Source: Minisyncoccota bacterium
Lineage (GTDB): Bacteria; Patescibacteriota; JACMRA01
Assembly: GCA_043772945.1 (NCBI GenBank)
Contig: JAYVFR010000023.1
Location: forward strand, 4,159 to 68,158
Length of the DNA stretch: 64,000 nt
Direction: 5' to 3'
Shown here: positions 7,651 to 64,000 of the stretch, piece by piece
Layout of the letters: every line of letters begins with the position of its first letter
How positions within the stretch are numbered: position 1 is the stretch's first letter
The notes under the pieces: model-generated
Seen by the model: only the letters and a program-made list of their open reading frames with translations
Told to the model about the DNA's origin: nothing
Database searches by the model: none
Position numbers and translations under genes: made by a program

Positions 7651-7736
7651 ATTTGATCAGAGTGTATCTAGAATTTTAATTTTTGTCAGATATGGTGTTT
7701 AGATGGCTAGTGTAGGTTGAAATTATTATTTTTATT

Positions 7737-7813: not shown

Positions 7814-7877
7814 TTTCTTATTCAAGAAAATTTTAAATAAATTAAAACTCCCTGTCAAACTTTATTTAAACTAGTTT

Positions 7878-8297: not shown

Positions 8298-8380
8298 AAT
8301 GTAATTTAATTAAGTAAATAAAATAAAGAAGTTTAAATATTAACTAATATGTGTTTTCTTTTTAGTTTTATGTCAAAGAT

Positions 8381-8410
8381 TTGACTTTTTTTAAAAAATT
8401 ATGCTATAAA
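8381..8410 (+). promoter_or_regulatory. putative sigma70-type promoter for tRNA-His
   Basis: TTGACT (8381-8386), an 18-nt spacer, then TATAAA (8405-8410), about 11 nt upstream of the tRNA start. Confidence 0.4.
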
Positions 8411-8421
8411 AAATATTGTAA

Positions 8422-8497
8422 GGCGGATGTAGTTCAGTGGTAGAGCGCCAGTTTGTGGTACTGGTTGTCGCGGGTTCGATCCCCGTCGTTCGCCCCA
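8422..8497 (+). tRNA. tRNA-His, anticodon GUG, with encoded G-1 and CCA
   Basis: Cloverleaf segments in order: G(-1)-GCGGATG-TA-GTTC-AGTGGTA-GAGC-G-CCAGT-TTGTGGT-ACTGG-TTGTC-GCGGG-TTCGATC-CCCGT-CGTTCGC-C-CCA. The extra 5' G opposite C73 is the His identity element. Confidence 0.9.
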
Positions 8498-8551
8498 TTT
8501 TAAATTTAAAAAATACAGCAATCAAATTTCTTAATTATCAATTTTTACTTT

Positions 8552-10049: not shown

Positions 10050-10921
10050 TCAAGGGCTATTCTAAGATTTTTAAGATTAGTTTCCATTTCGGTAATATAA
10101 TTTTTACCATTGTCAATTTCATCTTGGTTCATAGCTTCAATTGAATTTAATTCTAATTTGTTAATCCCTAAATCTTTTATTGCTGTATTAATTACGGGAA
10201 TATTTTCATTTACTTGCCCTAAAAGATATTGAATTTTAGTGTCTTTAATTTCTTTTATAATCCTTGCTAATTCAACTGGGTCAAGCTCACTTCCGTCATT
10301 CGCTTGCACAAGCGAAATCATTTGTAGATTATAGCGACGGGCTAAGTGTCCAAAAGCAGGGTGCCCTGTGTAGAATTTGCGAGCTTTACACTCTTTTAGA
10401 CCAGCACTGAATTCTTTGTCTAATTTCTCTAATTGCTCAACTAATTGACTCTGATTGTTAGTGTAAACAGTTTTGTTGTTAAAATCTAAGCCAGTAATTT
10501 TGTTAAAAACCAAATCAGACATTTGTCTCATAGAAACTGGATCAAGCCAAATATGTGGATCAGTTTCAAGCGGGTTGAGTTGTAGTTTGAGCGAATTCAA
10601 TTTATTGATTTTTTTGCTCCAAGCTTCTAAGTTACCATGATAAATTAATAATTTGGAGTCTTCAATGTCTTTTTGGTTTGCTGGAGTTAATTCATATTCG
10701 TGAACTTCGCTACCACTAGGTGTTAGGTTTATGACTTTTAAATTTTCACCAACAATTTTTTTAGTAAGGAAATAAAAAGGATAAAAACTGGTTACAATAC
10801 TTTTAACTTGAGTTAGTTTATCATTTTCGGCTGATTTTTTTTGCTGGAAAGATAAAAATCCAATTAAAAAAAACGCAATGATTATTAAGCAACTAAAAAT
10901 AATCTTAAATTTATTTTTCAT
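10040..10921 (-). CDS. metal ABC transporter substrate-binding protein (ZnuA/TroA-like)
   Basis: 293 aa with an N-terminal signal/anchor. HEYE, DPHIWLDP and HPAFGHL motifs are typical of cluster A-I metal-binding proteins. Confidence 0.8.
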   Translation of the reverse strand: MKNKFKIIFSCLIIIAFFLIGFLSFQQKKSAENDKLTQVKSIVTSFYPFYFLTKKIVGENLKVINLTPSGSEVHEYELTPANQKDIEDSKLLIYHGNLEAWSKKINKLNSLKLQLNPLETDPHIWLDPVSMRQMSDLVFNKITGLDFNNKTVYTNNQSQLVEQLEKLDKEFSAGLKECKARKFYTGHPAFGHLARRYNLQMISLVQANDGSELDPVELARIIKEIKDTKIQYLLGQVNENIPVINTAIKDLGINKLELNSIEAMNQDEIDNGKNYITEMETNLKNLRIALECQ

Positions 10922-10978
10922 ATTCTTAAAAAATTGTGCAACTCACTTTGCCTTGTCAAGTTAAAATTTAAGTAAAGG

Positions 10979-13411
10979 TTATTTACTATCTTCTTCTAAT
11001 TCTTTTTTCATTAAATCTTTAGGGTTGGTCGTGATAATTTCATGTTCACGGGGAAAGGGTATAATTTCAATACCGACGTGTCGTGAACCCGCAAAGAATA
11101 TTCCTTGCCCTACATTAGCTTCTAATAACAATTGTCTTTCACGGTTTGTTAGACTAAAAGTTTCAACTAGTTGATCTATGGCAGCAGGCGATTGCTTTAA
11201 AAGAATTTTCATGGCTGAGTTTGTGATAATTGGTTTTCCGAGTGGCGATGATAAAAAGTCTGTAACGTCTTGAGAGATGGTTGTAATTCCCAAATAATAT
11301 TTACGAGCCCTTTTAGCTAGCCCATAGAGAAAGCGAGCAGAATCTTCGTACTGCATCATAATCCAAGCTTCATCTACCACAAGTATACGTCTCTTTAATT
11401 TAGAGCGGATTTCAGTCCAAACGTATTTAAGTAAAATGTACATGGCAATAGGTCTTAGTGTTTCTTGGAGATCTCTAATACTAAAAACGATAAAATCATT
11501 GCTAATGTTAATATTAGTTGGGCGATTAAACATTCCCGAGAAAGTTCCTTCTGTATATCTATAAAGTCTTTGGGCAAGGCTTTCACCACCAACAATTCCG
11601 TTTAAAATTTCAACCAAATCCCCCATAGTAGGTGGAGTTATCGTTCCTAAATCACTACTATCAGTAATATCACGTTTAGCGTAAGCTTGCTGAACGGCTT
11701 TTTCCATTACACTCACTTCGGTTGGGTTGAGTTTACCGAGCATCAAATTAAATAACCCCATTAAATCAATAATTGCAGTTCGCAAAATATCTGCTACACT
11801 CTCGCCTGGGAGAGGTTTAGGTAAGTCAAATGGATTGATGCGACTAGAAGCGTTTAAACTTAAATTAATATAAACTCCCCCCAGAGCATCTGCTAGAATT
11901 TTATATTCTTGCTCAGGATCAATTACAATAACTCCTACTCCAAGCATACGACTACGAAGAATTTCAAGTTTAACTGTGTAACTTTTACCAGCTCCAGAAG
12001 TAGCAAAAACCAACGAATTGGCATTTTCAAGCTCAAAACGATCAAAAATTACGAGGGAACTGTTGTGAATATTAACTCCGTAGAGAATTCCAGAATCACT
12101 TGACAAGTCAGAAGAAACAAAAGGAAAAGCTGCGCTTAAAGGTGAAGTATTCATATTAGTTACTACGTCTAAATCATCTTTGAGAATTGGTAAGCAGGCA
12201 TTAAAGCCGTCATCCATCTGAAGAGCAGAGCGCTTTATCAAAATATTTTGCTGAGAAAGGATTCCTTCAACAGTTTGACTTGATTTTTCTAATTCTTCTT
12301 GAGTGTTACCGTATACTTGAATGTAAATACCAACGCGATAAAACTTCTCTACACCTTGTTGGATTGCATCCCGTAAGCCCTCAACGTCTCGGTAGGCTGT
12401 TTCTAACTGGGGATCCCTTGCTTTTCCTTGCTCCTGATTTAGGTTTAAACTGGCTTGAATTTTACCCACTTTACCGCGAAGCTCACGCAATACCTCACTT
12501 GAATCTCTAGGATAAATAAAAATGGATAAATCAAGTTGGATATCAGAATTTACAATTCCTTCAAGCCACCCCATAGTTACTACACGAGGGTAAACCAAAA
12601 CAAAATGCGAGCGAACGAGTTTAGTATTTATTTGAATTTCACGATTTCCAATGCTAACACCAGATGGAGCAATCAAGTCACGGATATTAGTAGTTCCTTG
12701 CCTATACGACTTTTCGCTGGCAATAAGAGTTTTTTGGATATCTATTTCAGTTTTAATAATCTCTCTCTTTAGTTCTGTTGGGTTTAATGATCTTAAATAT
12801 TCTAAACTATTGGTGTCGACTTTTGGTTTAATTGCTCCACGAGGGTTAGGTCGATTCGGTTGTGAGTTTGTTATTTGTTGATTATTTGTAACTTGCTTAC
12901 CAACTGGAAATGTAGATTGTTGGTTAATGGTTTGCTGTTGTGGTCTCTGATTCAAGTTAGGCCTAAATTGTTGCTGAGTTTGTTGCTGTGAATTTGATTG
13001 AGGAGATGGTCTAAAAAAATTATTTTGAGAGTTTGGTTGTGGAATTTGTTGCGGAGGTCTCTGGTTTGGGTTGTTTGTATTTTGACGAATTTGTCCAAAG
13101 TTGCTGGTTGAATTAACTATAGCGCCAGTGTTAGGTTTTGTTGTAGGGTTTTGTTGTAGCGATCTCTTTAAATCTTGATTAGTTGCGGTGGTGCCATATT
13201 GACCATAGGCACCTACTGAATCATTTCGTCTTGCAAGTTCAGTTTGTAGATTTTGATTTGATGCAATCGGTTTAGCTCCAGCTACTGCTTTAGCCCCAAA
13301 ATTTGTTGGTTTGTTAGTTTGGTTTAAATTAGTGTGTGTAGCCCCAAAATTTGTAGGTAGCACTCGATTGTTAGAGTTGTTGCTATTGTTGCGGGGAAGA
13401 GGATTAGACAT
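10979..13411 (-). CDS. VirB4/TraC-like type IV secretion ATPase with N/Q/P-rich N-terminal extension
   Basis: 810 aa with Walker A SGAGKSYT and Walker B ILVVDEAW. The C-terminal 600 aa have a VirB4-like layout. The first ~200 aa are low-complexity N/Q/P-rich. Confidence 0.75.
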   Translation of the reverse strand: MSNPLPRNNSNNSNNRVLPTNFGATHTNLNQTNKPTNFGAKAVAGAKPIASNQNLQTELARRNDSVGAYGQYGTTATNQDLKRSLQQNPTTKPNTGAIVNSTSNFGQIRQNTNNPNQRPPQQIPQPNSQNNFFRPSPQSNSQQQTQQQFRPNLNQRPQQQTINQQSTFPVGKQVTNNQQITNSQPNRPNPRGAIKPKVDTNSLEYLRSLNPTELKREIIKTEIDIQKTLIASEKSYRQGTTNIRDLIAPSGVSIGNREIQINTKLVRSHFVLVYPRVVTMGWLEGIVNSDIQLDLSIFIYPRDSSEVLRELRGKVGKIQASLNLNQEQGKARDPQLETAYRDVEGLRDAIQQGVEKFYRVGIYIQVYGNTQEELEKSSQTVEGILSQQNILIKRSALQMDDGFNACLPILKDDLDVVTNMNTSPLSAAFPFVSSDLSSDSGILYGVNIHNSSLVIFDRFELENANSLVFATSGAGKSYTVKLEILRSRMLGVGVIVIDPEQEYKILADALGGVYINLSLNASSRINPFDLPKPLPGESVADILRTAIIDLMGLFNLMLGKLNPTEVSVMEKAVQQAYAKRDITDSSDLGTITPPTMGDLVEILNGIVGGESLAQRLYRYTEGTFSGMFNRPTNINISNDFIVFSIRDLQETLRPIAMYILLKYVWTEIRSKLKRRILVVDEAWIMMQYEDSARFLYGLAKRARKYYLGITTISQDVTDFLSSPLGKPIITNSAMKILLKQSPAAIDQLVETFSLTNRERQLLLEANVGQGIFFAGSRHVGIEIIPFPREHEIITTNPKDLMKKELEEDSK

Positions 13412-13602
13412 TTAATTTATAAATTTATTTTTAGCTTTTTTATTTAGTTTAAATTTCCTAGCGATTATACCTAATATATTATAAGATTGCAAATTTCTAA
13501 TTTTCTGAGAGTTTATATATAAACAAAAGAATAAACATAAAAAAATTCACCCTATAATTAAGGTGAGTATTAAAAACAATATTGATTTTAAAAAGTCTGT
13601 CT

Positions 13603-14271
13603 TTATTTTAAAAATAGTGAGGCTGCGTATCTATTGCCAATTAAGGGAGTTAAATGATACATCTGTCCATTAACCTTACAAAAAATTGGTTTAAGATTGC
13701 TGTATTCAATCTCTACTTCAGTTCCATTTTTTAAGGAGCTAATTTTTTTGCAATTTTTATCACGAGTATTAAGGCCATTTGAGCTGCTTACTAATTGCTT
13801 TGAAGAAAGGTTTGAAGGTATATTACCAATAATGTTAGTGAATTCTTTAGCTACATATGTACCAGTATAAGGACCGTTAGTATCTGTTATTGAAACCACA
13901 TTTACAGGGATCATCAGATAGCTTTTATTTCCTACTTTGCAGCTAAGATTTTGTTTGTCGCCATCTAATAGGTAAACATTTTGAATTAAAATAGCCTCAC
14001 TATTAACAGCCCCAATTTTCTCGCAGTTTGCGTTTCGTAGATTTGCTCCATTGCTAGATGTAACTTCTAAATAGTTATATTGCAAATTTTGTGAGGCAGC
14101 TTGAGTGTTAACAGCGGTATTAAGAGAAAGTCCTGTAATAACAACTGTCAATACTGAAAGTAAAGTTAGTTTGTTTAAAATAGTAAAAAAAGTTGTAGTC
14201 ATATAAATAATAAATAAAAAAATAATGATTAGTTGAGATGTTTTTTTGTTCTCATCTAGTAAGTCGTACAA
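13603..14271 (-). CDS. secreted protein with two SH3b-like repeats
   Basis: 222 aa with a signal-like N-terminus; an alternative start is M24, at 14200-14202. Two internal repeats: SSNGANLRNANCEKIGAVNSEA...CKVGNKSYLMIPV and SSNGLNTRDKNCKKISSLKNGTEV...CKVNGQMYHLTPL. Confidence 0.55.
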   Translation of the reverse strand: MYDLLDENKKTSQLIIIFLFIIYMTTTFFTILNKLTLLSVLTVVITGLSLNTAVNTQAASQNLQYNYLEVTSSNGANLRNANCEKIGAVNSEAILIQNVYLLDGDKQNLSCKVGNKSYLMIPVNVVSITDTNGPYTGTYVAKEFTNIIGNIPSNLSSKQLVSSSNGLNTRDKNCKKISSLKNGTEVEIEYSNLKPIFCKVNGQMYHLTPLIGNRYAASLFLK

Positions 14272-14558
14272 ACTACATATTTTGTGACAATTAAATTTTT
14301 ACTTAATTTCAATAGATTGTAATAATAAAAAAAAGTAGCCCAAACTCCTTTAAACAAGACTTTATATAACAAAGTAAATAAACATTCAAGCACTTTTTTA
14401 AAGCTCACAAAGACTAAAGCAGTAGGGCAGATTACATATATCTCTCCAACTGGCGTAATGATAGCAATAACGGCCAAAGTTCATCAAACCCTGTTAAAAC
14501 ACTTGTTAGAGCTAGAGATATGTTCAGAAGATATGTTCATAGTTGATAAATTACAAAC

Positions 14559-15350
14559 TTATTTCAAATAGTCTTTTATTTGATCAATAATAGCTTGGCG
14601 GTTATTTTCAACTGCTTCTGTGAATAATGATTCTCTTTTAATTTCTATTACTTGAGGAATATTTGGCAATTCATTCTTATAAATATTCTTGATTGTTTGC
14701 TTATCATCTTCACTTAGCTTATTGTTTAAAGGTTTATTTTCTATAATTTTTGTTAATTCTATAGTAATTATTTTTTGATTTTCTATTTCAGACAGGATTT
14801 TAGCCCTATCATTAACATCTTGAATCTTAATTGAGTTATAATCTAATTTTTCTAAGATTTTTTTGATAGCTTTAATAATTTCATCTAGTTGTGAATATTG
14901 TAATTCATCTAAATTTTGTAATTTACTTATTTTTTCCCAATTATTTAGTTGCTCGCTTTGGAGAGTTATTCCTTGATTTTGTTTTTCTAAATTTGTCTTT
15001 AAGCCTGATATCAAAGCTTCATAATTGTTTAAAATTTGATTGGTTTGATTATCTTTTGGTTGTAAATCTATCCAGGTAATTTCTCTCTCAAAAACTTGAT
15101 TTAATTCTTCAATTTGTTTTTTTATTTCTGTGTAAATATCATCACTTGGTTTAAGGTTATTTTTTGAATATTGAGTTAAGTTATTAGTTTTTTTCTCAAT
15201 ACTATGACTTTTTTCAATTATATGAATAACTATGTCTGAAAGCTTACGCTGGCCATTGCCAAAGCTGTAAATTAGAGAGCTTAAAACCAGCAACATAAAT
15301 GCTAGAAAACTCACCATCCCCAAATTGCGTTTAATCCAGTTACTAAGCAT
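14559..15350 (-). CDS. membrane-anchored coiled-coil protein
   Basis: 263 aa. N-terminal TM helix followed by a charged, heptad-like sequence. Lies directly downstream of pnp. Confidence 0.5.
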   Translation of the reverse strand: MLSNWIKRNLGMVSFLAFMLLVLSSLIYSFGNGQRKLSDIVIHIIEKSHSIEKKTNNLTQYSKNNLKPSDDIYTEIKKQIEELNQVFEREITWIDLQPKDNQTNQILNNYEALISGLKTNLEKQNQGITLQSEQLNNWEKISKLQNLDELQYSQLDEIIKAIKKILEKLDYNSIKIQDVNDRAKILSEIENQKIITIELTKIIENKPLNNKLSEDDKQTIKNIYKNELPNIPQVIEIKRESLFTEAVENNRQAIIDQIKDYLK

Positions 15351-15375
15351 ACAAATTTTTTAATTATATTAGTGA

Positions 15376-17469
15376 TTATATTAGACTTAGATCCATTTGC
15401 CCTTTATCGTTAAAACCTGCAACTTCACATTGCAATACGTCACCAATTTTATACCTAGTGCTTGGTGGAACGCCGCGAGCCATTTTAAGGTTGCTGATGT
15501 GAATCATTGACTCTTTATCACCATCGTCTAGTTTCACAAATACTCCGTAATTTTCCATTCGAAAGATTTTAGCCATTACTTTATCTCCTGTTTGATAAAC
15601 TTTAATAATACTCTCAATTTGTTTGTAACAAGCGTCAACATCTTCCATTTTACTACTATAAATTGCGCATTTACCAGTTTCATTTTCTAGATCAATTTTA
15701 ACTTTGAATTTATCTTGCATGCCGTTAATAACAGCCCCACTTGGTCCAATCACATCTCTCATTTTGTCACTTGGAACTATAATAATTCTAACCTTGGGAG
15801 CTTTAGGGTGGATGTTTCGATTAGATGAGCTAATAGTTTGATTCATTATCGACAGAATGTGTTGACGAGCCTCTTTTGCTTGTTTGAGAGCCTCTTTTAA
15901 AACTAGTGAAGTTACTCCTCCAACTTTATTATCTAATTGAATGGCAGTAACGCCAGTTTCTGTTCCTGTAACTTTAAAATCCATATCAGCATGATGATCT
16001 TCAAGTCCTTGTATATCAGTTAAAACGCTGTAGTCCCCATTCTCATTTATTGCAAGTCCCATCGCAACCCCAGCAACATGAGATTTGATCGGAACGCCAG
16101 CCGTCATTAGTGAAAGGGAGCTAGCACAAGTGCTTGCCATGCTAGTGGATCCGTTTGACCCAAGACACTCACTAACTGTTCTGATCATGTAAGGAAAATC
16201 ATCTTTATTTGGCAATACTGGCTCTAAAGCTTTTTGAGCAAGGTTTCCATGTCCTATTTCACGCCTGCCTGCTCCAATGTAGCGACCAGTTTCCCCGACT
16301 GAATAAGCAGGAAAATTATAATGGTGGATATAACCTAAATAAACCTCATTTTCATCTTCGGCGTTATCCGTTAGCTGCATTTGATCGAGAGTTCCTAAGG
16401 TCAATGTATTCAAAACTTGAGTTTCACCTCTGCTAAATAAGCTTGATCCGTGTGGCTCTGAAAGCACATTAATTTGGCAACTAATAGCTCGTGTTTCGGT
16501 TAATAAACGACCATCAACTCGTCTTTTGTTATTAATTAAATTATCTTTAATTAGCTTTGTTAAGTATTCATCAAGAGCTAGGTGAAGCTTTTTTTCTATC
16601 AAATTATTATCATCACTTAAAACTAAAATCTGACGAGTTAAAACATCTATTTGCCTAGCTAATTTATTATGAATATCACTAAAATTAACTAAAATTTGCT
16701 CCTCTGGCAGAATTGTCTCAAGCTCACTCTGGTTATGAAATCCCCAACTACACCCAAAAATCTGTTCTTTTGCTAAAAGGTTAGAAGCCTCCTTGATATC
16801 TCTAATAGTGTCAGTAAAAAAGACTATTTGATCCAGTGATACATTCCAATCACGAGCAATATTTTTAATGCAAGTTTCTTTACTAAAATTTGCCTTAAAG
16901 CCTTCTAAGTGAGTGAATTTTAAACCGCTAGCTACTGCAAACTCGTCTAGAACTGGTTGATAAGCTGTAGAAACAATTGCCATCTTGGCGTTTTTATATT
17001 GCTTGACTTCTTCTACAAATTCTTTGAAATATCCGAGCCCGATTTGTTTTTTTAAATTATATTCTTCCTCTCTAAACTTTAAGAGGTTTTCTGTTTCTTC
17101 GTCCGTATAAACTCTATCTTTAGTGTAGCGTGGATTAACTAGTCTATCAGTTTTAAGATATTTAATTACTTCTTCTTGATTCTCTTTCTTCTCTAAATGC
17201 ATAAAAGCTTTTACGGTAGCGTTCCAAGAATCTCCAAAAACTCCATCAAAGTCAAAAATTAAATACTTAGATGTATTAACTTTATTTTTAGCTTCAATAA
17301 TTTCTTTAATCTTAAAATCTACAAATTCTTTTAACTTTAAATTTTTCTCATTTTTTGATAAATCATTATAAAGAGCATCTTCAATTTGATTTTTATTTGA
17401 CTTCCAGTAATTGAGATAAACAGATTCAGGCCTCGTTACTTTTAGTTTTATTTGTTTATAGTAAGTCAT
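15376..17469 (-). CDS. pnp: polynucleotide phosphorylase-like protein with N-terminal HAD hydrolase domain in place of the first RNase PH domain
   Basis: 697 aa. Residues ~316-550 carry the second-core RNase PH signature (RVDGRLLTETRAIS...HGSSLFSRGETQVLNTLTLG). KH and S1 domains follow at the C-terminus. Residues ~66-265 carry HAD motifs: DFDGV, VSTA, a conserved K, and FFTDTIRD. Confidence 0.85.
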   Translation of the reverse strand: MTYYKQIKLKVTRPESVYLNYWKSNKNQIEDALYNDLSKNEKNLKLKEFVDFKIKEIIEAKNKVNTSKYLIFDFDGVFGDSWNATVKAFMHLEKKENQEEVIKYLKTDRLVNPRYTKDRVYTDEETENLLKFREEEYNLKKQIGLGYFKEFVEEVKQYKNAKMAIVSTAYQPVLDEFAVASGLKFTHLEGFKANFSKETCIKNIARDWNVSLDQIVFFTDTIRDIKEASNLLAKEQIFGCSWGFHNQSELETILPEEQILVNFSDIHNKLARQIDVLTRQILVLSDDNNLIEKKLHLALDEYLTKLIKDNLINNKRRVDGRLLTETRAISCQINVLSEPHGSSLFSRGETQVLNTLTLGTLDQMQLTDNAEDENEVYLGYIHHYNFPAYSVGETGRYIGAGRREIGHGNLAQKALEPVLPNKDDFPYMIRTVSECLGSNGSTSMASTCASSLSLMTAGVPIKSHVAGVAMGLAINENGDYSVLTDIQGLEDHHADMDFKVTGTETGVTAIQLDNKVGGVTSLVLKEALKQAKEARQHILSIMNQTISSSNRNIHPKAPKVRIIIVPSDKMRDVIGPSGAVINGMQDKFKVKIDLENETGKCAIYSSKMEDVDACYKQIESIIKVYQTGDKVMAKIFRMENYGVFVKLDDGDKESMIHISNLKMARGVPPSTRYKIGDVLQCEVAGFNDKGQMDLSLI

Positions 17470-17605
17470 TTCATCAACCTATACATTAGAATTATTCTGG
17501 TCAAATTACTACCTTTGTTTTTTGACTAAAATAGATAATTGGAGATATTTATTGTTTGTAACTTTTCTACTTTCAAAAGTAAAAATTTCTTATAGGAGAT
17601 TTCAA

Positions 17606-58438: not shown

Positions 58439-60418
58439 ATGATTTTAAAGCTCTCTAGTGAATTAGATTCTAATCTAAACAGCACAGTAAACAAAAATAT
58501 TAAACTTAAAAGTAATTCAAAAGCCGAATTTAATCAGACTAATCAAGTTTTTGAGGACTATATTAAAGAAGTAGAATTAGAATCAAAATTAGCAACTGAA
58601 AACGCTCAAGAAGCAAGACCTGAATTTGATGCTCTTTACCAAAGCGATTATACAGATGGCGAGCTTAATCAGTTAATTGCTAAATGGGAACGCAAGCCCA
58701 AAGTAATTAACGTCCCAACTTTCAGAGAAATTTTAACTACAACAAGTTTGGATGAGATGACTGAATTAGAGGTTTCTAACATTAGTCAATTAGAAGCAAA
58801 GAGTGCTATTGAGAGACTAAATCGCGAAAAGACTATTAGCGGAGAAACTAAGCCTCAAACTAACCTAGATCAAGCTACTCCAACAATTGAAAAAGTTTCT
58901 AAAGACAGAGCTAAAAACACTTTGGCTCCTATAATTAATTCAACTATTAAATTGCAGATTGCTAATCCAAACTTTAAAGACGTTGTTAAAGAAAAACAAG
59001 CAAATCAAAAAATTCTAGACGAGCAACAGAAACAAGTAGAAACCCAGGATAAAATCCAGCGACTAGAAAAAGAATTTAAACAGAATAATAAACAACCAAC
59101 AACCGAATTAGAGAAACTAGATTATGAATCAAATAGAACTAATTATTTAATTGATAATGACAGTAATTTAACCACAGACCAAAAAACTCAAGCTAAAAGA
59201 AATTACAAAAATACTTTAAAGAGAAATAGTCCAAGTAATCAATCAAGTTCATCACAGTCTTCCCGCTCTCAAAGTTCAAGTGACAATTCAAGTACTTCAT
59301 CTCAGACAAACAACAGCTCAAGCTCCTCTAACTCAAGCCCAATAGTATTAAATAATAATCAGCCAAGTTCTAATAATTGGGTTACTAGCCTTGCTAACGC
59401 AGTTTTTGGAGGTGGTATTCAGGCGGAGGCTAAAGGATTAAACAACTCTGACACAGCCTTATCAATTTATTCATGGGACTATAATGGTGGCTTTGCCTTG
59501 GATATACCGAACGGGAATACAAACATCGGGACACAAATTGCAGTGAATTATAATAATAACGATAATGCTCAGAAATGGTGGACGAATAACAGCCAAGAGA
59601 TTAGATCTAAGCTAAATACAGACAGATGTTTAGATATTAGCGGAGGAAATTATACTAATGGAACTACAATAGCCTTGCATTATTGTACAGGCAACGATGC
59701 TCAGAAGTTCTTTTTTTATGGGAATACTTTGCGGTCTTGGGCTAATCCAAATTATTGTATAGATGTACCGAGTAATAACTGGACTCCGAATGTAGTTCAA
59801 TTATGGGATTGCAATAGTAGCGGTGCTCAGAAATTCGTCCCAGGAGACAACGGCTTCAACAACACCTTCCAAGTCCAGATAGCTACTAATGGAGGTATTT
59901 TAGCAGGTAATGGATTAAGCTCTGGTCATACTTTTGTAATTTTCAAAACTAATAACCAATTGAATAACACTATGTCGCTTTGGCCAGATTATGACACAAA
60001 TTGTGATAATGGTCGCCCAGGTTGGGCAAGTACTAGAGACTTTTTAAGACAAAATAATATGTGTGATTTTGATGGAGTAAAAGTTGACTGGGAAAAAACT
60101 CAAACAGAAGGAGATTTATACTATGCCTTAAATACAGCCAATACTGGATTTACCGTTAAGACGACTAGCATTAAAAAAACAACATCCGATCTTTATAGAT
60201 TTGGTGGTGGCTATCGCATAGGAGATAATTGGGGTCGTGATAATGTGAATTACGATTACAATGCTTTTTGGTGGGGAGCAAACAGAAATAATGGAAATTG
60301 TGTGTCTTTTTCTCAATATCTTTGGAATGATATGATGTCAACAGATGGAAAGTTATTTATGCGAATTAAACCTGATGCAGTGATCTCAGCACCTGCTACA
60401 TTATTGAACTATTATTAA
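58439..60418 (+). CDS. ricin-type beta-trefoil lectin protein with uncharacterised His...Cys C-terminal domain (putative toxin)
   Basis: 659 aa with no signal peptide of its own. A Ser-rich linker is followed by three QxW-type repeats (AQKWW, AQKFFF, AQKFV) at about aa 330-470. The C-terminal ~175 aa contain GHTFVIF and NGNCVSFSQYLW. Confidence 0.7.
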   Translation: MILKLSSELDSNLNSTVNKNIKLKSNSKAEFNQTNQVFEDYIKEVELESKLATENAQEARPEFDALYQSDYTDGELNQLIAKWERKPKVINVPTFREILTTTSLDEMTELEVSNISQLEAKSAIERLNREKTISGETKPQTNLDQATPTIEKVSKDRAKNTLAPIINSTIKLQIANPNFKDVVKEKQANQKILDEQQKQVETQDKIQRLEKEFKQNNKQPTTELEKLDYESNRTNYLIDNDSNLTTDQKTQAKRNYKNTLKRNSPSNQSSSSQSSRSQSSSDNSSTSSQTNNSSSSSNSSPIVLNNNQPSSNNWVTSLANAVFGGGIQAEAKGLNNSDTALSIYSWDYNGGFALDIPNGNTNIGTQIAVNYNNNDNAQKWWTNNSQEIRSKLNTDRCLDISGGNYTNGTTIALHYCTGNDAQKFFFYGNTLRSWANPNYCIDVPSNNWTPNVVQLWDCNSSGAQKFVPGDNGFNNTFQVQIATNGGILAGNGLSSGHTFVIFKTNNQLNNTMSLWPDYDTNCDNGRPGWASTRDFLRQNNMCDFDGVKVDWEKTQTEGDLYYALNTANTGFTVKTTSIKKTTSDLYRFGGGYRIGDNWGRDNVNYDYNAFWWGANRNNGNCVSFSQYLWNDMMSTDGKLFMRIKPDAVISAPATLLNYY

Positions 60419-60433
60419 ATTATCATTATTTTT

Positions 60434-61051
60434 ATGTACTTCTATCTTATACTTTTTTTTATAATAATTACATCTATTTTTATCTACTTATTAAATAAAA
60501 GTAACCTACAAAAAAAGACTAAAATAATATTAAGGACTCTAATATTTTTGCCAATAACTTTTTTTCTACTTGGAATAATAGTACTTAATCTATTGCAGTT
60601 TTTACAATTTCGTACATCGGATCCAGTATTATTAAATTGTAATGTAAATGACTATACATCTAATAAAAGCTATCGTTTAAACATATTTGGCGAGGAATAT
60701 ATATCTAATCAAGATGGGAGTATGATGCCATCTACAATACAAAATCGCTGGAATTTTAATAAAATTAGTCTTTTCGAAGAAGAATTGAGCAAGGAAAATA
60801 ATGCAAAGTATGAATTAAAAGAAAAATACGGTCAATTTATACAAGATTGCAGCAATAAAAAAGATATAGATTACAAATATCAAGTTTATACGCGTGAAAT
60901 ATCAGATAAAAATAATGATACTATAACTTATCCTAGCAAAAAAATAGTTCTTCCTGAAACTATTTGCTATCTCAAGAAAGTTACAAGTAGTGCTACTGAT
61001 TATCCTGATTGCTCCAGCGAAATTAAAGCTAAGTTTGGTCTCGGGAAGTAA
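60434..61051 (+). CDS. membrane-anchored tail-motif protein 1 (immunity-like)
   Basis: 205 aa with two N-terminal TM helices and an extracytoplasmic Cys-containing domain. Ends ...CYLKKVTSSATDYPDCSSEIKAKFGLGK. Confidence 0.55.
   Translation: MYFYLILFFIIITSIFIYLLNKSNLQKKTKIILRTLIFLPITFFLLGIIVLNLLQFLQFRTSDPVLLNCNVNDYTSNKSYRLNIFGEEYISNQDGSMMPSTIQNRWNFNKISLFEEELSKENNAKYELKEKYGQFIQDCSNKKDIDYKYQVYTREISDKNNDTITYPSKKIVLPETICYLKKVTSSATDYPDCSSEIKAKFGLGK
60995..61038 (+). repeat. 44-nt block identical to 61913-61956
   Basis: actgattatcctgattgctccagcgaaattaaagctaagtttgg occurs identically in two genes that are otherwise diverged. Confidence 0.9.
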
Positions 61052-61060
61052 TATTAATTT

Positions 61061-61324
61061 ATGTTTTTAATTAAGTATTCTTTTAGAAGAGTTTCTGACA
61101 TCTATCGTTTTAGTGGCGGGTATAGATGGGGTAGAAGTAACTGGGGTAAAGATAATATTAGATATACACCTGTTTATCTTGGTACAAATAATACTGGTAA
61201 CTGTGCTTCCTTTAGTTACATACTTTGGAATCAAATTATGGAAGATAATGGAATGTCTCGATTATTTGTTATCGGTTTTGATGTACCTGGTTTTATTAAG
61301 TTTGCTTTAGATGGTAGTATTTAA
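61061..61324 (+). CDS. orphan C-terminal fragment homologous to the toxin tip
   Basis: 87 aa. SDIYRFSGGYRWGRSNWGKDNIRY...NNTGNCASFSYILWNQIM aligns with SDLYRFGGGYRIGDNWGRDNVNY...NNGNCVSFSQYLWNDMM of the 659-aa protein. The upstream His-containing half is missing. Confidence 0.5.
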   Translation: MFLIKYSFRRVSDIYRFSGGYRWGRSNWGKDNIRYTPVYLGTNNTGNCASFSYILWNQIMEDNGMSRLFVIGFDVPGFIKFALDGSI

Positions 61325-61333
61325 TAATTTAGT

Positions 61334-61963
61334 ATGTTTATTTTACTTATTTTAATTGTATCAATTTTACTTTTTACTTTAATATATTTTAATGTATTAA
61401 GAAAGGCAAAAATACATAAATCAAAAAATTTATTACTTATCGGTTTATTTGTAAGTGTAGCAATTATAGTGTTTTTAATTATTAATTCCCTGGTAATTTA
61501 TTTTCCAGAATATAAATCTTTACAGTGTGGAGATACTAAGTTTTCTTTTCAAAAAAGTGTTAAAGGTACGGAATCGTTTACAATTTATGGAGGGGACTGG
61601 AATTTAGATTTAAATAAAGTTTCAAATAGTTTCGTCGGTATAAATCCTAGGTTAGTTTTAACTTTTGTTAATTATGATCTAGATAATGACAAATTAAGTT
61701 CAGAATATAAACTTTTAAGAAGTAATGAAGCAACCCGTAAAGCTAATGTTATTAAAAAGCTTCTAGATTGTAAGGGCTACGATAATGATGTTATTTATTC
61801 AGTTGGCAAACCTAAAAGTGTTAATGAAAATGGCTTTCCTGTTCCTGATTCCAATGGTAATAATACATATTTATATGATCGTTACTGCTATATTGCCAAT
61901 TACTCTAAAGTCACTGATTATCCTGATTGCTCCAGCGAAATTAAAGCTAAGTTTGGGATTTAA
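61334..61963 (+). CDS. membrane-anchored tail-motif protein 2 (immunity-like)
   Basis: 209 aa with two N-terminal TM helices. Ends ...CYIANYSKVTDYPDCSSEIKAKFGI. Confidence 0.55.
   Translation: MFILLILIVSILLFTLIYFNVLRKAKIHKSKNLLLIGLFVSVAIIVFLIINSLVIYFPEYKSLQCGDTKFSFQKSVKGTESFTIYGGDWNLDLNKVSNSFVGINPRLVLTFVNYDLDNDKLSSEYKLLRSNEATRKANVIKKLLDCKGYDNDVIYSVGKPKSVNENGFPVPDSNGNNTYLYDRYCYIANYSKVTDYPDCSSEIKAKFGI
61913..61956 (+). repeat. 44-nt block identical to 60995-61038
   Basis: See the partner repeat at 60995-61038. Confidence 0.9.
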
Positions 61964-61977
61964 TTAATTAAAAAAAT

Positions 61978-63573
61978 ATGTCTAAAAATTTAATTAATAT
62001 TACCAATATTACCAAATCAATTTTTCAAAAAATTATTCTAATTGGAATTTCTCTGATATTTGTTATTAATAAGCTAATTATTGTTCTAAATGATTTTCAT
62101 CAAGGTGGAATCACATATATGCCAAGTAGGTTTGAGCGAATTTCACTTTTAATCTCAAATTTTGAATTTTTTGGAATTGCGATTGTAATAGTTAGCTGTT
62201 TGTATTTGAATATTCGTTATTATAAATCAAAGTTAGTTTATCTATTGACATTTTTAATTTTGTTTAAAGATTTATTTTTTACCAATATTAGCCTGCTATT
62301 TCCTTCATTTTTTATATATTTTAGTAATCCATCTAATTATAAGTTTTATTTATTGGTTAGTGTTATCTTTAGTAATTTATTCTTTGCTTTGTTGCTTGGA
62401 ATTTACCAAATTTGGTTGATCAATATCTTTAAAAAACCTGTGGAGCTAGAGAAATATAAAGCATTTAACAATAAATTATTTACGCCTTGGAATAAGTTAA
62501 ATCAGACTAATTCAATGAAAGTGCTTTATTATATTTTAATGGTTGTTATTACTCTATTAGCGGGAGCTAGTATTTATCTAACAATCAAGGGCTTATTATT
62601 TGGCAATATAACTGGCGAGCTAGGAGGTGCTAGAAATGGATTAGAGGCTTTTTCAGTTTTATTGTTTGGATTGCCCATTTATATAACTTTTAATTTATGC
62701 CACATTACCTTTATAAATGCGAATAAACAAATTTATAAAAACCTAAATATTTATAAAAAGAGGATGATTGCTTGGTTTGTGATAATTGGCATAGTTATAA
62801 TTTCAACAATAGCGTTATTATATTTCTATCAAAATTATTATGATAATAACTTAGCTGTTACAATTTTAACTTCATATTTTGGCATTTTCATTATTCTACC
62901 TACTATTTATGATTTGTTTTTAACAAGAATTCAAATAAACAAAAAAAATCTTTTATTTGTATTTATTTTTTTAACCACTATAATAATTGCAGGATTGATT
63001 GGTGGTTATTTATATAATGATTATACTCACAAATTACGTGATATTGAAACTGTAGAATTGAATTGTAAACAAGGTAAACTCACTAAATATACAAGCTTTG
63101 ATTTTAATATTAACCGCAAAAGAAGCGTATTTCAAACAAAGGATTCAACTATTGATAACTATTTAAAAACTATTACTAAAAATGATGATAATTTAAATTT
63201 AGTTTTTTCTTTACCCTCTTTATCTGATGGATTGTATGTCAAAACACTGACTGGGGGTTATAGTGAATCAATGGTTCAGGATTGGATTAAAGCAGAAAAT
63301 GAAAGACGCTCTGTTACTATGTCAAAATATGGTAACTTGATTGAAAGTTGTTATGAATCTAATAATTTAAATTATTTATTTCAAGAGCTTAAAACCATTG
63401 ATAAATCTGATTCAAAAGTATCAAAAAGTTACAGTCCTAGGACTGGTGATGAACTTCATCAATACGAGGACGTAATTATTCCAGAATCAACCTGCTATCT
63501 TAAGAAAGTCACAATCAATGCGAATGACTATCCTGATTGTAGCTCTGAGATTAAAGCTAAGTTTGGGTTATAA
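61978..63573 (+). CDS. polytopic membrane protein with C-terminal tail-motif domain (family member 3)
   Basis: 531 aa. About 10 TM helices are followed by a ~170-aa domain similar to the two short members. Ends ...CYLKKVTINANDYPDCSSEIKAKFGL. Confidence 0.6.
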   Translation: MSKNLINITNITKSIFQKIILIGISLIFVINKLIIVLNDFHQGGITYMPSRFERISLLISNFEFFGIAIVIVSCLYLNIRYYKSKLVYLLTFLILFKDLFFTNISLLFPSFFIYFSNPSNYKFYLLVSVIFSNLFFALLLGIYQIWLINIFKKPVELEKYKAFNNKLFTPWNKLNQTNSMKVLYYILMVVITLLAGASIYLTIKGLLFGNITGELGGARNGLEAFSVLLFGLPIYITFNLCHITFINANKQIYKNLNIYKKRMIAWFVIIGIVIISTIALLYFYQNYYDNNLAVTILTSYFGIFIILPTIYDLFLTRIQINKKNLLFVFIFLTTIIIAGLIGGYLYNDYTHKLRDIETVELNCKQGKLTKYTSFDFNINRKRSVFQTKDSTIDNYLKTITKNDDNLNLVFSLPSLSDGLYVKTLTGGYSESMVQDWIKAENERRSVTMSKYGNLIESCYESNNLNYLFQELKTIDKSDSKVSKSYSPRTGDELHQYEDVIIPESTCYLKKVTINANDYPDCSSEIKAKFGL

Positions 63574-63758
63574 AAAGTTTGTATCACTTCTTCTTTTTTA
63601 AATTTATATTTTTTTAAATTATTTTTATAACTATCACAATTGTAAGTGATCTCCGCTCTAGGAGCAAACATATAGATTATAAATAAAGATGGAAATACAA
63701 CAATAGCAAGTAGCGTTAATATGATTGATTTTTTAGTTATTTTAAACATAAAATACAA
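63528..63758 (-). pseudogene. probable truncated N-terminal fragment of a tail-motif family member
   Basis: The N-terminus (TM helix, then EITYNCDSYKNNLKKYKF) resembles family members for about 55 aa. The frame then runs antisense through the end of the 531-aa gene. It starts 4 nt after the stop of the upstream minus-strand member. Confidence 0.3.
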
Positions 63759-63761
63759 ATC

Positions 63762-64000
63762 CTACTTTAACTCAAACTTAGCTTTAATTTCAGCAGAACA
63801 ATCAGGATAATCAGTCTCACCCGTTCGGTTTAGAAGGTAGCAATATTCTGAATTAGTTATTTTATTAATCTCTGTGATTGTGTCAATATTTAGAGATTTA
63901 CAACTTGAATATTTTTTAAAATCTAATTTAATGTCTTCAATAATTGATTGCGATAAGAAATTATCATAATTTCCAAAAAGTATATACTTGTTATTGTATA
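63762..64000 (-). CDS. tail-motif family member on the minus strand, 5' end outside the window
   Basis: Translates to ...NSEYCYLLNRTGETDYPDCSAEIKAKFELK followed by a stop (TAG at 63762-63764). Confidence 0.55.
   Translation of the reverse strand, partial: YNNKYILFGNYDNFLSQSIIEDIKLDFKKYSSCKSLNIDTITEINKITNSEYCYLLNRTGETDYPDCSAEIKAKFELK

What the first reader, a model, noticed from the sequence alone, without database searches (positions are those of the whole stretch)
60434..64000. Five neighbouring genes share the C-terminal tail DYPDCS(S/A)EIKAKF, with a 44-nt block identical between two diverged members
The five tails are:
- ...ATDYPDCSSEIKAKFGLGK (60434-61051);
- ...VTDYPDCSSEIKAKFGI (61334-61963);
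- ...ANDYPDCSSEIKAKFGL (61978-63573);
- ...ETDYPDCSAEIKAKFELK (63762-64000, minus strand);
- a fifth, truncated member lies at 63528-63758.

Upstream of the tail all members share a C-Y-(L/I) motif and an early Cys after the TM helices, but are otherwise diverged. Blocks 60995-61038 and 61913-61956 are 44 of 44 nt identical, while the flanking codons differ. That implies recent gene conversion or selection at the DNA/RNA level.

A conserved 3' handle at the end of each toxin-tip plus immunity unit, paired with the conserved SDxYRF region at its start, would let homologous recombination swap whole cassettes. Alternatively the tail is a sorting or anchoring signal.
Basis: seen in the sequence. 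Interest (0 to 1): 0.75.

Follow-up and report, generated by a model that had tools for sequence, protein, structure and literature searches.

The report
Toxin-immunity gene array with shared tail
A rare, uncultivated low-GC bacterium carries a secreted lectin-toxin gene followed by a row of small membrane-protein genes (probable antidotes) that all end in the same 13-residue tail; the tail is kept by selection on the protein, and neighbouring copies occasionally overwrite each other's tail DNA, which is ordinary toxin/immunity-locus behaviour in two previously undescribed protein families.

Summary
Four ORFs in the window end in DYPDCS(S/A)EIKAKF. The "fifth" is an N-terminal remnant without the tail. 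Four more tail genes lie just past the window end. The 44-nt identity is exact and unlikely by chance (P about 3e-5 given codon usage).

The genes sit behind a signal-peptide, Ricin-B-lectin protein. Its C-terminal domain is an undescribed family with a His...Cys order, possibly a permuted NlpC/P60 hydrolase like TseH. Two 5'-truncated "orphan" toxin ends are interleaved with the tail genes. A related strain keeps the toxin's N-terminal part (about 90-100% nt identity) but has a different C-terminal domain and partner gene.

In distant loci the gene directly after a toxin homologue carries the same C-terminal element, even with no orphans present. Tail dN/dS is 0.07 with saturated synonymous sites, and no RNA structure is predicted.

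So the tail is a protein-level feature of a four-cysteine, membrane-anchored, probably immunity ectodomain. The identical DNA blocks (m1/m2, m5/m6, m4/m7) are recent gene conversion or unequal crossover. The paired-handle cassette-swap idea is weakly supported, because the 5' "handle" shares only 9-14 nt of identity. The sorting-signal idea is not supported. This is a new member of a known kind.

The parts
57808..58434 (+). 5' part of the toxin gene: signal-peptide-like N-terminus (…STVSALA) and N-terminal region, cut off from the rest by a frameshift
   Evidence: ORF. It is collinear with residues 1-190 of the intact 866-aa homologue P0003. Hydrophobic N-terminus.
58401..58432 (+). 16-nt tandem duplication (GYAGGATTCAAACGCT x2) that frameshifts the toxin gene
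   Evidence: Comparison with L005, which has one copy and an uninterrupted 866-aa ORF. The same duplication is present in assemblies L004 and L030.
58439..60418 (+). Toxin body (659 aa): low-complexity/coiled region, Ricin-B lectin (about 59483-59836), C-terminal putative catalytic domain
   Evidence: Pfam Ricin_B_lectin E=1.2e-16. The C-terminal domain family was found by exhaustive HMMER, with 14 representatives, always C-terminal and after a lectin where the protein is long enough to show it.
59864..60415 (+). Toxin C-terminal domain (about 184 aa) with GH (His at 59927), NNxCDxD, SDxYRF, GNCxSFSxxxWNxxM (Cys at 60299)
   Evidence: Alignment. AF2 gave pLDDT 65 and pTM 0.69, with the Cys at the N-terminus of a helix and the His in a strand. 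The best Foldseek hit was TseH 6v98, E=0.53, TM 0.44. No Pfam or PDB sequence match.
60182..60415 (+). Toxin 'tip': the C-terminal half of the domain, from SDLYRF onward. This is the part that the orphan copies retain
   Evidence: Alignment of the main toxin with orphans P0011 and P0014.
60434..61051 (+). m1: tail protein (205 aa; 2 TM helices, 4-Cys ectodomain), 15 nt after the toxin stop; putative cognate immunity
   Evidence: The equivalent position in L005, L006, L017, L031 and L036 holds a protein with the same 4-Cys C-terminal element.
60995..61038 (+). 44-nt block, copy 1 (codons T D Y P D C S S E I K A K F G)
61061..61324 (+). Orphan toxin end oT2 (87 aa). It starts mid-domain at …RRVSDIYRF, keeps the Cys helix and lacks the His-bearing half
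   Evidence: (P0011). The longest exact DNA match to the main toxin is 9 nt.
61334..61963 (+). m2: tail protein (209 aa; 2 TM helices, 4-Cys ectodomain) following the orphan end
61913..61956 (+). 44-nt block, copy 2, identical to 60995-61038
61978..63573 (+). m3: tail protein (531 aa) with about 9 predicted TM helices followed by the 4-Cys ectodomain and tail
   Evidence: Its tail copy 63523-63566 is 80% identical to the 44-mer, and all differences within the DYPDCSSEIKAKF codons are synonymous.
63528..63758 (-). N-terminal remnant of a family member (TM helix + …APRAEITYNCDSYK…), truncated; no tail
   Evidence: It resembles the N-terminus of the L017 partner protein (…ARPEITYNCNGYK…). Its start region (…TATTTTATGTTT) is part of a 101-nt block that is 94% identical to the m7/orphan junction.
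63762..64000 (-). m4: 3' part of a 152-aa tail protein (1 TM helix, 4 Cys), cut by the window end; first gene of a convergent minus-strand array
   Evidence: Full gene in L001 11785-12243. It is a tandem paralogue of m5 (84% nt identity). dN/dS analysis.

Best explanation
The region is a polymorphic toxin locus, and the tail-bearing genes are its immunity genes.

The toxin is a Sec-exported protein with a Ricin-B lectin domain. It ends in a roughly 180-residue His/Asp/Cys domain, most likely a circularly permuted NlpC/P60-type hydrolase that acts on the envelope (lipid or wall) from outside the cell. Each tail gene encodes an N-terminally membrane-anchored protein with a disulfide-stabilised four-cysteine ectodomain on the outer face of the membrane. 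There it can intercept the toxin.

The tail (C-Y-[LIF]-x12-13-C, here …DYPDCSxEIKAKF) is the conserved C-terminal element of that ectodomain. It is held constant by purifying selection on the protein while the rest diversifies.

The tail is also the only stretch of DNA that the paralogues still share. It is therefore where homologous recombination happens between neighbouring copies. Short gene-conversion tracts and unequal crossovers produce the 44-nt identical block (m1/m2) and the junction blocks: about 170 nt at about 98% for m5/m6, and 101 nt at 94% for m4/m7. They also duplicate, delete or re-join units.

The two 5'-truncated toxin ends are remnants of earlier toxin C-termini, pushed downstream with their immunity genes (C-terminal displacement). 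They are not a ready-to-use cassette store.

Shown here: the anatomy, the linkage to toxin genes, the protein-level constraint, and the recombination footprints. Inferred: toxicity, the immunity function, the enzyme class, the disulfides, and the direction of the historical events.
For: 1. Locus anatomy. The order is toxin, then m1 15 nt downstream, orphan end, m2, m3. A convergent array follows: m4, m5, m6, orphan end, m7.

2. Strain comparison (window vs L005). Upstream of the C-terminal domain most 90-nt windows are 86-100% identical, with local dips to 72-78% at the 16-nt duplication, the Ser-rich stretch and one other window. Identity is 54-74% in the first half of the C-terminal domain. 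It falls to the background level of this alignment (about 50% or less) through the tip and partner gene, with local peaks only at the Cys motif and at the tail.

3. Toxin domain family. There are 14 representatives among 1.84 billion, always C-terminal, with the lectin present in every protein long enough to show it, and with conserved GH … NNxCDxD … NCxxFS.

4. Fold. AF2 places the invariant Cys at a helix N-terminus and the His in a strand, in His-then-Cys order. The top PDB fold hit is the T6SS effector TseH. TseH is a permuted NlpC/P60 enzyme whose relatives target lipids and have membrane-associated immunity proteins (PMC12994826).

5. Downstream partner in homologous loci. It has the same 4-Cys C-terminal element in L005, L006, L017, L031 and L036, and is a polytopic membrane protein in L035 and L037. 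All are membrane proteins.

6. Topology. The positive-inside rule puts the Cys-rich domain outside. Every member has exactly 4 Cys after the last TM helix, with constant C3-C4 spacing.

7. Protein-level constraint. Tail dN/dS is 0.07 with pS 0.50, against 0.34 in the ectodomain body. Copies differ by synonymous codons.

8. Recombination footprints. P = 3e-5 for the 44-mer. There are mosaic blocks that ignore gene bodies.
Against: - No experiment or complex model links the tail proteins to toxin neutralisation.
- The enzyme assignment is weak. The Foldseek match is not significant (E=0.53). There is no Pfam or PDB sequence hit. hhalign against PLAAT3 aligns only the 11-residue Cys motif, with probability 0.2%.
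- Toxin-tip and partner-protein identities do not co-vary (Mantel r=0.08, p=0.38), although the partner bodies are near noise level.
- A purely structural role does not obviously explain why 13 contiguous, mostly hydrophilic residues are invariant. Relatives manage with only C-x14-C-x-F.
- The toxin gene in this strain is frameshifted, so the system may be partly decayed here.
Confidence: 0.6

Rival explanations
1. The tail is primarily a DNA-level recombination handle. Together with the conserved SDxYRF…GNCxSFS region at the 5' end of each unit, it lets RecA swap whole toxin-tip plus immunity cassettes into the expressed toxin gene. This would be a pilin-like or CDI/Rhs-orphan-like switching system.
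For: - Three tail blocks are (nearly) identical between otherwise unrelated neighbours: 44/44 nt for m1/m2, about 98% over about 170 nt for m5/m6, and 94% over 101 nt for m4/m7.
- In the window-vs-L005 comparison, homology resumes at the tail after the divergent tip and partner gene.
- Every unit begins ATG TTT a few bases after a tail.
- Orphan-module recombination is documented for Rhs (PMC3967940, listed).
Against: - The main toxin and the orphans share at most 9-14 nt of exact identity at the 5' side. That is below the roughly 20-30 nt needed for efficient RecA exchange (established knowledge).
- Synonymous sites in the tail are saturated between m4 and m5 (pS 0.50, dN/dS 0.07).
- The motif is kept, with different codons, in single-copy loci that have nothing to swap (L006).
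- No RNA or DNA secondary structure was found.
- No cassette-order variants were found. The assemblies of this strain are identical.
Confidence: 0.2
2. The invariant tail is the part of the immunity protein that contacts the conserved catalytic half of the toxin (an active-site plug or common docking peptide). The variable body reads the variable toxin tip.
For: - Thirteen contiguous, mostly polar residues are invariant under strong purifying selection. That is more than a disulfide staple needs.
- The toxin's catalytic residues and first half are also the conserved part of the toxin.
Against: - Toxin homologues with the same conserved core are paired with partners lacking the SxEIKAK stretch (L031, L036), or with unrelated polytopic proteins (L035, L037) or a tail-less protein (L018).
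- No complex model could be made.
Confidence: 0.2
3. The tail is a C-terminal sorting, anchoring or processing signal (for example for a sortase-like or other C-terminal processing enzyme).
For: It lies at the extreme C-terminus, is shared by many paralogues, contains a Cys, and ends in Phe plus 1-4 residues.
Against: - There is no hydrophobic segment or basic tail as in LPXTG, PEP-CTERM or GlyGly-CTERM signals, and the proteins are already anchored by N-terminal TM helices.
- The tail is found only on genes next to this toxin family, and nowhere else in the window's 64 kb or in the other fetched loci.
- The GTDB genome collection, the JGI metagenomes and the viral contigs gave no motif hit other than one toxin locus.
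- No Pfam or NCBIfam signal model matches.
Confidence: 0.05
4. The tail proteins are not immunity proteins but another kind of partner: an export or activation helper, or a surface receptor or adhesin family diversifying for host contact.
For: - No functional data exist.
- The toxin gene is frameshifted in this strain while the array is intact.
- There is no co-variation signal.
Against: - Position, orientation and short intergenic distance directly after the toxin stop recur in seven independent loci.
- Each orphan toxin end is followed by its own member.
- Extra copies accumulate in arrays, as orphan immunity genes do (compare PMC5361080).
- Retaining immunity genes after toxin loss is expected for immunity, not for an export helper.
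Confidence: 0.12

Closest known systems
CDI (CdiA-CT/CdiI) and Rhs orphan toxin-immunity modules (Poole et al. 2011, PMC3150448; Koskiniemi et al. 2014, PMC3967940; Jackson et al. 2009 'C-terminal displacement')
   Same: A large exported protein has a conserved N-terminal part and a variable C-terminal toxin. The immunity gene lies immediately downstream. 5'-truncated 'orphan' toxin ends, each with its own immunity gene, lie further downstream.
   Different: - There are no CdiB/T5SS, Rhs/YD or T6SS/T7SS parts. Export appears to be by a plain signal peptide, with a Ricin-B lectin as the targeting module.
- The orphans begin in the middle of the catalytic domain, not at a VENN/PxxxxDPxGL-type boundary.
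- The orphans lack usable 5' DNA homology to the main toxin.
- The immunity proteins share an invariant C-terminal tail.
Vibrio cholerae T6SS immunity-gene arrays formed by sequential effector displacement (Kirchberger et al. 2017, PMC5361080)
   Same: Arrays of retained 'old' immunity genes lie downstream of the current effector, with a mosaic structure caused by frequent homologous recombination.
   Different: - The delivery system and the protein families are different.
- Here the immunity paralogues belong to one family with a shared tail, and that tail itself carries the recombination footprints.
TseH / Tox-Act1 / LRAT-YiiX group of circularly permuted NlpC/P60 enzymes (PMC12994826)
   Same: - Catalytic His precedes catalytic Cys by about 110-125 residues.
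- The Cys sits at a helix N-terminus in an 'NCxxF' context.
- The toxin is used in bacterial conflict and acts on the envelope, and the immunity is membrane-associated.
   Different: - There is no significant sequence or profile similarity.
- The structural match is only marginal (E=0.53, TM 0.44).
- The domain is fused to a lectin and a Sec signal rather than being T6SS-delivered.
Orphan immunity islands of gut Bacteroidales (for example PMC12247911, PMC10470768)
   Same: Multiple immunity paralogues accumulate next to each other, some without a cognate toxin.
   Different: - Those arrays are associated with T6SS effectors and, in some cases, recombinases.
- No recombinase was seen within about 8 kb upstream or about 2 kb downstream of this locus (gene tables).
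- The immunity families are unrelated.

Membership tests
Polymorphic toxin system (sensu Zhang/Aravind 2012) | Exported multidomain protein with an N-terminal part conserved between strains and a divergent C-terminal toxin domain | tested here: met
   Window vs L005: most 90-nt windows are 86-100% identical up to about 59850, with a few local dips to 72-78%. Identity is 54-74% and then about 50% or less in the C-terminal domain. There is a signal-peptide-like N-terminus.
Polymorphic toxin system (sensu Zhang/Aravind 2012) | Small gene immediately downstream of the toxin that varies with it (immunity gene) | tested here: met
   m1 starts 15 nt after the toxin stop. A partner gene sits 7-25 nt after the stop in L005, L006, L017, L018, L031, L035, L036 and L037. 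Its sequence differs whenever the toxin tip differs.
Polymorphic toxin system (sensu Zhang/Aravind 2012) | Downstream orphan or cassette copies of the toxin end with their own immunity genes | tested here: met
   oT2 (61061-61324) with m2, and oT3 with m6 in L001.
Polymorphic toxin system (sensu Zhang/Aravind 2012) | The C-terminal domain is toxic and is neutralised specifically by the cognate immunity protein | not testable with these tools
   This needs expression and competition assays.
Permuted NlpC/P60 (TseH, Tox-Act1, LRAT, YiiX) | Conserved His in a beta-strand, followed later in the chain by a conserved Cys at the N-terminus of a helix | tested here: met
   GH is invariant in all 11 full domains, and the Cys is invariant in all 14 sequences. 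In the AF2 model the His lies in strand 21-29 (pLDDT about 80) and Cys146 lies at the start of helix 146-160 (pLDDT about 86).
Permuted NlpC/P60 (TseH, Tox-Act1, LRAT, YiiX) | Significant sequence or profile similarity to family models | tested here: not met
   No Pfam hit for any of the 14 members at E<=5. A profile search against PDB sequences found nothing relevant. hhalign vs PLAAT3 aligns only NGNCVSFSQYL to SENCEHFVNEL, with probability 0.2%.
Permuted NlpC/P60 (TseH, Tox-Act1, LRAT, YiiX) | Fold match to a solved family member | tested here: inconclusive
   TseH (6v98) is the top hit among 350,542 chains, but with E=0.53, probability 0.28 and TM 0.44, using a medium-confidence model (pLDDT 65).
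Ricin-type beta-trefoil lectin domain | Match to PF00652 above the gathering score | tested here: met
   61.5 bits against a cut-off of 29, residues 349-466.
C-terminal sorting signals (LPXTG, PEP-CTERM, GlyGly-CTERM and similar) | Short motif followed by a hydrophobic helix and a basic tail, present on many otherwise unrelated exported proteins | tested here: not met
   The tail is hydrophilic and ends 1-4 residues after the Phe. It occurs only on toxin-adjacent genes. No NCBIfam or Pfam signal model matched.
Integron-like or site-specific cassette arrays | Adjacent recombinase, and a structured recombination site (attC-like hairpin) at each cassette boundary | tested here: not met
   No recombinase appears among the called genes from about 50 kb to 2 kb past the window end. 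The tail/junction regions fold no better than shuffles. Only the L006 element has an integrase next to the pair, and it has no array.

The most novel reading that the evidence does not exclude
The invariant tail has a dual role. As a peptide it docks every immunity paralogue onto the conserved catalytic half of the toxin. As DNA it is the cassette boundary at which units are shuffled. This would make a built-in diversification system for toxin-tip/immunity units in a streamlined, probably episymbiotic bacterium, comparable in logic to pilin or CDI orphan switching but using the 3' end of the immunity gene as the crossover point.
Probability: 0.12. Interest if true: 0.65.

Novelty: new member of a known kind. 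Interest (0 to 1): 0.4.

Why it matters
It adds two protein families that Pfam and NCBIfam do not cover:
- a lectin-fused His/Cys toxin domain;
- a four-cysteine, membrane-anchored partner with an invariant C-terminal tail.

These extend the catalogue of bacterial conflict systems. They come from a rare low-GC lineage seen in only a handful of metagenomes.

The locus also separates two causes of sequence identity within one repeat family. Protein-level purifying selection explains the motif. Local gene conversion explains the identical DNA.

If the tail proves to be the toxin-docking element, it would be a simple tag for finding further immunity genes of this class. Otherwise the biology is that of an ordinary polymorphic toxin locus.

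Tried and rejected
- Word-index homologue searches with m1 and with the toxin C-terminal domain found only themselves.
- A profile of the tail searched in the 5.8-billion set returned nothing at E<=10. A local HMM scores true members at 56-73 bits, so this is probably a technical failure. The search was lost.
- The strict tail DNA pattern gave 0 hits in GTDB genomes and JGI metagenomes.
- The loose pattern gave 5 chance hits in genomes, 9 hits in metagenomes of which only L026 (the L006 element) is real, and 0 in viral contigs. The L028 hit lies inside a 411-aa non-membrane protein and was rejected.
- tblastn of m1 against plasmids gave nothing.
No fold search was run on it.
- Mantel test of toxin-tip against partner-body identity: r=0.08, p=0.38, uninformative.
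- Gapped global nucleotide identities of gene bodies were inflated by AT-richness. They were replaced by anchored ungapped comparisons.
- RNA folding of the four tail regions showed no excess structure. Promoter and terminator scans were at background.
- Homology between the 9-TM N-terminus of m3 and the polytopic partners of L035/L037 was not found.
- The apparent split of the toxin gene in L001/L004 into 281 + 306 aa is only a run of N in that scaffold.
- The organism could not be named. 'CPR-like' is my inference from GC content, gene content and metagenome-only occurrence.

Full report
**1. Checking the observation**

The window is AT-rich (32% GC). Four ORFs end in the reported tail:
- 60434-61051 (+), called m1 here;
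- 61334-61963 (+), m2;
- 61978-63573 (+), m3;
- the minus-strand ORF whose 3' part occupies 63762-64000, m4.

A six-frame search finds the motif nowhere else in the 64 kb. A local HMM of the element confirms this.

Blocks 60995-61038 and 61913-61956 are 44/44 identical, and the identity ends exactly at both borders. I took codon usage from twenty long ORFs of the window. With that usage, two genes independently encoding T-D-Y-P-D-C-S-S-E-I-K-A-K-F would use the same 14 codons with probability 3e-5. The shared codons include rare ones: TCC 5%, AGC 17%, AAG 19%. The same sequence is found in three independent assemblies (ENA ERZ28573549, ENA ERZ27314285, Logan SRR23617235), so it is not an assembler artefact.

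The 'fifth member' (63528-63758, minus) is different. It holds only a TM helix and the first-cysteine region (…APRAEITYNCDSYK…) of a family member. Its last residues are merely the antisense reading of m3's tail. It is a truncated remnant with no tail.

**2. The array continues beyond the window**

An identical contig (L001, 99.9% identity) extends about 2 kb past position 64000. On the minus strand it carries, in order:
- m4, complete, 152 aa;
- m5, 152 aa, a tandem paralogue of m4;
- m6, 183 aa;
- a 78-aa orphan toxin end, oT3;
- m7, another tail gene, cut by the contig end.

So at least eight tail genes form two convergent arrays.

**3. What the neighbours are**

*The toxin gene.* ORF 58439-60418 (659 aa) contains a Ricin-B lectin domain (PF00652, E=1.2e-16) followed by about 180 residues with no Pfam, NCBIfam or PDB sequence match.

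An exhaustive HMMER scan of 1.84 billion representatives found only 14 relatives. In all of them the domain is at the C-terminus. A lectin precedes it wherever the protein is long enough to show it. These positions are conserved: GH … NTxSxWP … NNxCDxD … SDxYR[FY] … Y … NCxx[FY]SxxxWNxxM … P.

The best relative, P0003 (866 aa), is collinear with ORF 57808-58434 plus ORF 58439-60418. In the window a 16-nt tandem duplication (58401-58416 / 58417-58432) frameshifts the gene. This separates the signal-peptide part from the body. The same lesion is present in two other assemblies.

*The orphan ends.* ORF 61061-61324 (87 aa, oT2) and oT3 in L001 align only to the second half of the domain. They run from SDxYRF through the invariant Cys to the end.

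*Fold of the toxin domain.*
- AF2 on the 14-sequence alignment gave a medium-confidence model (pLDDT 65, pTM 0.69). The His lies in a strand, and the invariant Cys lies at the N-terminus of a well-predicted helix.
- The best of 350,542 PDB chains was the T6SS effector TseH, but the match is not significant (E=0.53, TM 0.44).
- TseH and Tox-Act1 are circularly permuted NlpC/P60 enzymes (His before Cys). The permuted NlpC/P60 group targets lipids, and Tox-Act1 has a membrane-associated immunity protein (PMC12994826).
- hhalign of the family profile against PLAAT3 aligned only the Cys motif (NGNCVSFSQYL / SENCEHFVNEL), with probability 0.2%.

I therefore treat 'permuted NlpC/P60-like hydrolase' as the most likely class (about 0.55), not as established.

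**4. Behaviour between strains**

I compared the window with L005, which carries P0003.
- Upstream of the toxin C-terminal domain most 90-nt windows are 86-100% identical. There are local dips to 72-78% at the duplication, at the Ser-rich stretch and at one other window.
- Identity falls to 54-74% in the first half of the C-terminal domain.
- It falls to the background level of this alignment (about 50% or less) through the tip and the downstream gene.
- Local peaks occur only at the Cys motif and over the tail, where 93 nt are 79.6% identical.

After the L005 partner gene comes another 2-TM family member, not an orphan end. This is the classical polymorphic-toxin pattern: a conserved delivery part with a replaced toxin end and partner gene.

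**5. The tail is a family-wide protein feature linked to the toxin**

I looked at the gene directly after the toxin homologue in other loci.
- L005: …TCYLKKVTDNTIDYPDCSSEIKTKFGLGK.
- L006: …TCYLSDFYNRKTYPECSPEIKRLFE. This locus has 40% GC, its toxin domain is only 39% identical, it has no orphans, and it sits on a mobile-looking element.
- L017: …CYLLNRNKLTDYPECSKEIKAEFGVV, followed by another paralogue.
- L036: …CWLSNPRNSKDYPMCNF.
- L031: two paralogues ending …CYFSDPYNQKKISNCNF and …CYFANPFKQNLNEDCVF.
- L035 and L037: the partner is a polytopic membrane protein.
- L018: a TM protein without the element.

All members of the tail family have one, two or about nine N-terminal TM helices. The flanking charges put the C-terminal domain outside the cell. 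Each has exactly four Cys after the last helix, and the C3-to-C4 distance is constant at 14-15 residues.

Ectodomain bodies are only 16-30% identical. The last 13 residues are invariant except at one position.

Database scans show that the motif is rare and never unlinked from the toxin family.

**6. Protein-level or DNA-level constraint?**

For the ungapped paralogue pair m4/m5:

| Region | pS | pN | dN/dS |
|---|---|---|---|
| Tail | 0.50 | 0.055 | 0.07 |
| Ectodomain body | 0.37 | 0.15 | 0.34 |
| N-terminus and TM segment | 0.37 | 0.20 | 0.46 |

- Across the ten sequenced tails, most pairs differ by 1-5 synonymous codons in the 13-codon core. Within this genome they differ by 0-1 amino-acid changes. 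Only m1/m2 and m5/m6 show no differences at all.
- The tail regions do not fold better than shuffled controls.

Hence the motif is maintained by selection on the peptide. The identical DNA blocks need a separate explanation.

**7. Recombination footprints**

Besides the 44-mer there are two further blocks.
- The m6-tail/m5-head junction and the m5-tail/m4-head junction are about 98% identical over about 170 nt. The block covers the tail, the stop codon, the spacer and the first ~50 nt of the next gene. Yet m6 and m5 are unrelated upstream, and the bodies of m4 and m5 are only 84% identical.
- The m4 tail plus 20 nt beyond its stop is 94% identical over 101 nt to the m7 tail and junction. Homology ends just after a shared …TATTTTATGTTT. 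After that point one locus continues into the remnant ORF and the other into oT3.

Every unit that follows a tail starts with ATG TTT.

These mosaics are what short gene-conversion tracts and unequal crossovers would leave if they were seeded in the only DNA segment the paralogues still share. In contrast, the supposed 5' handle shares at most 9 nt (T1/oT2) or 14 nt (T1/oT3) of uninterrupted identity. That is below the roughly 20-30 nt that RecA-dependent exchange needs (established knowledge).

The orphan ends therefore look like decaying remnants of displaced toxin C-termini. This matches the C-terminal displacement and sequential-displacement models for Rhs and for Vibrio T6SS arrays (PMC5361080; PMC3967940 and PMC3150448). 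They do not look like a functional cassette store.

**8. Mechanism I commit to**

- A Sec-exported lectin-toxin with a His/Cys hydrolase domain acts on the envelope from outside.
- The tail genes encode membrane-anchored, disulfide-stabilised ectodomains that neutralise it.
- The tail is the conserved C-terminal element of that fold: the C3-C4 staple plus a subfamily-specific SxEIKAK stretch of unknown contact function.
- Its DNA acts passively as the crossover point that homogenises neighbouring copies and rearranges units.

Confidence is about 0.6 for the whole package. It is higher (0.8 or more) for 'protein-level constraint plus recent gene conversion'. It is lower for the enzyme class and for the immunity function, neither of which could be tested.

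**9. Comparison with known systems, and novelty**

The locus meets the anatomical criteria of a polymorphic toxin system. Both the toxin domain and the partner family are absent from Pfam and NCBIfam. They occur in only a handful of metagenome assemblies, in low-GC genomes that look like small, uncultivated bacteria. I could not place them taxonomically.

The differences from CDI, Rhs and T6SS examples are:
- plain Sec plus lectin delivery;
- orphans that begin mid-domain;
- an invariant C-terminal tail on otherwise hypervariable partner proteins.

I rate it a new member of a known kind, of moderate interest. The more novel reading is that the tail is both a docking peptide and a cassette boundary in a dedicated diversification system. 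The evidence does not exclude it, and I give it about 0.12.

Noticed in passing
window 58401-58432: A 16-nt tandem duplication (GCAGGATTCAAACGCT / GTAGGATTCAAACGCT) frameshifts the toxin gene. It separates the signal-peptide part (57808-58434) from the 659-aa body. The homologue in L005 has one copy and an intact 866-aa ORF. This strain may have lost toxin export while keeping the whole immunity array.
   Followed up: yes
L001 11785-13670 (window-equivalent about 63762-65650, minus strand): The array continues past the window: m4, m5 (a tandem duplicate of m4, 84% nt identity), m6, a second orphan toxin end of 78 aa, and another tail gene cut by the contig end. The toxin that heads this convergent array is not in the available sequence.
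   Followed up: partly
window 61978-63573: m3 carries about 9 predicted TM helices in front of the 4-Cys ectodomain. Other toxin homologues (L035, L037) are followed by purely polytopic membrane proteins. No homology between these and the m3 N-terminus was detectable.
   Followed up: partly
window 63519-63570 and 63768-63819: The convergent tails of m3 and m4 form a 52-nt inverted repeat, 83% complementary and 197 nt apart. It flanks the truncated remnant ORF and could have been the site of an inversion or truncation event.
   Followed up: no
L006 (also L007-L011, L026), about 5100-17500: A toxin plus tail-protein pair (40% GC) sits on a mobile-looking element. The element has ParA, a tyrosine integrase directly downstream and convergent, two IS605-type TnpB genes, a DUF3854/DUF5906 primase-like gene and a PIN gene. 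This suggests horizontal spread of the pair.
   Followed up: partly
window 7737-7813: tRNA-Ile with anticodon TAT (UAU), which is uncommon in bacteria. Most bacteria read AUA with a lysidine-modified CAU tRNA.
   Followed up: no
window 53083-55545 (minus): An 820-aa lysyl-tRNA synthetase (tRNA_anti-codon + tRNA-synt_2) is fused to a C-terminal AlaRS-type segment (tRNA-synt_2c, with a faint tRNA_SAD hit), according to the precomputed Pfam list. This is an unusual fusion.
   Followed up: no
window about 59230-59330: A Ser-rich low-complexity stretch in the toxin (…SSSQSSRSQSSSDNSSTSSQTNNSSSSSNSS…). The ENA scaffold has a run of N at 59237-59246, which made its gene caller split the toxin into 281 + 306 aa. 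This is an artefact, not a real difference.
   Followed up: yes
all tail copies (for example window 61026-61034, 61944-61952, 63554-63562): The second Lys of the tail uses the rare codon AAG (19% usage) in all eight copies that have Lys there, including L005. This is unexplained. It may reflect shared ancestry or homogenisation rather than function.
   Followed up: partly
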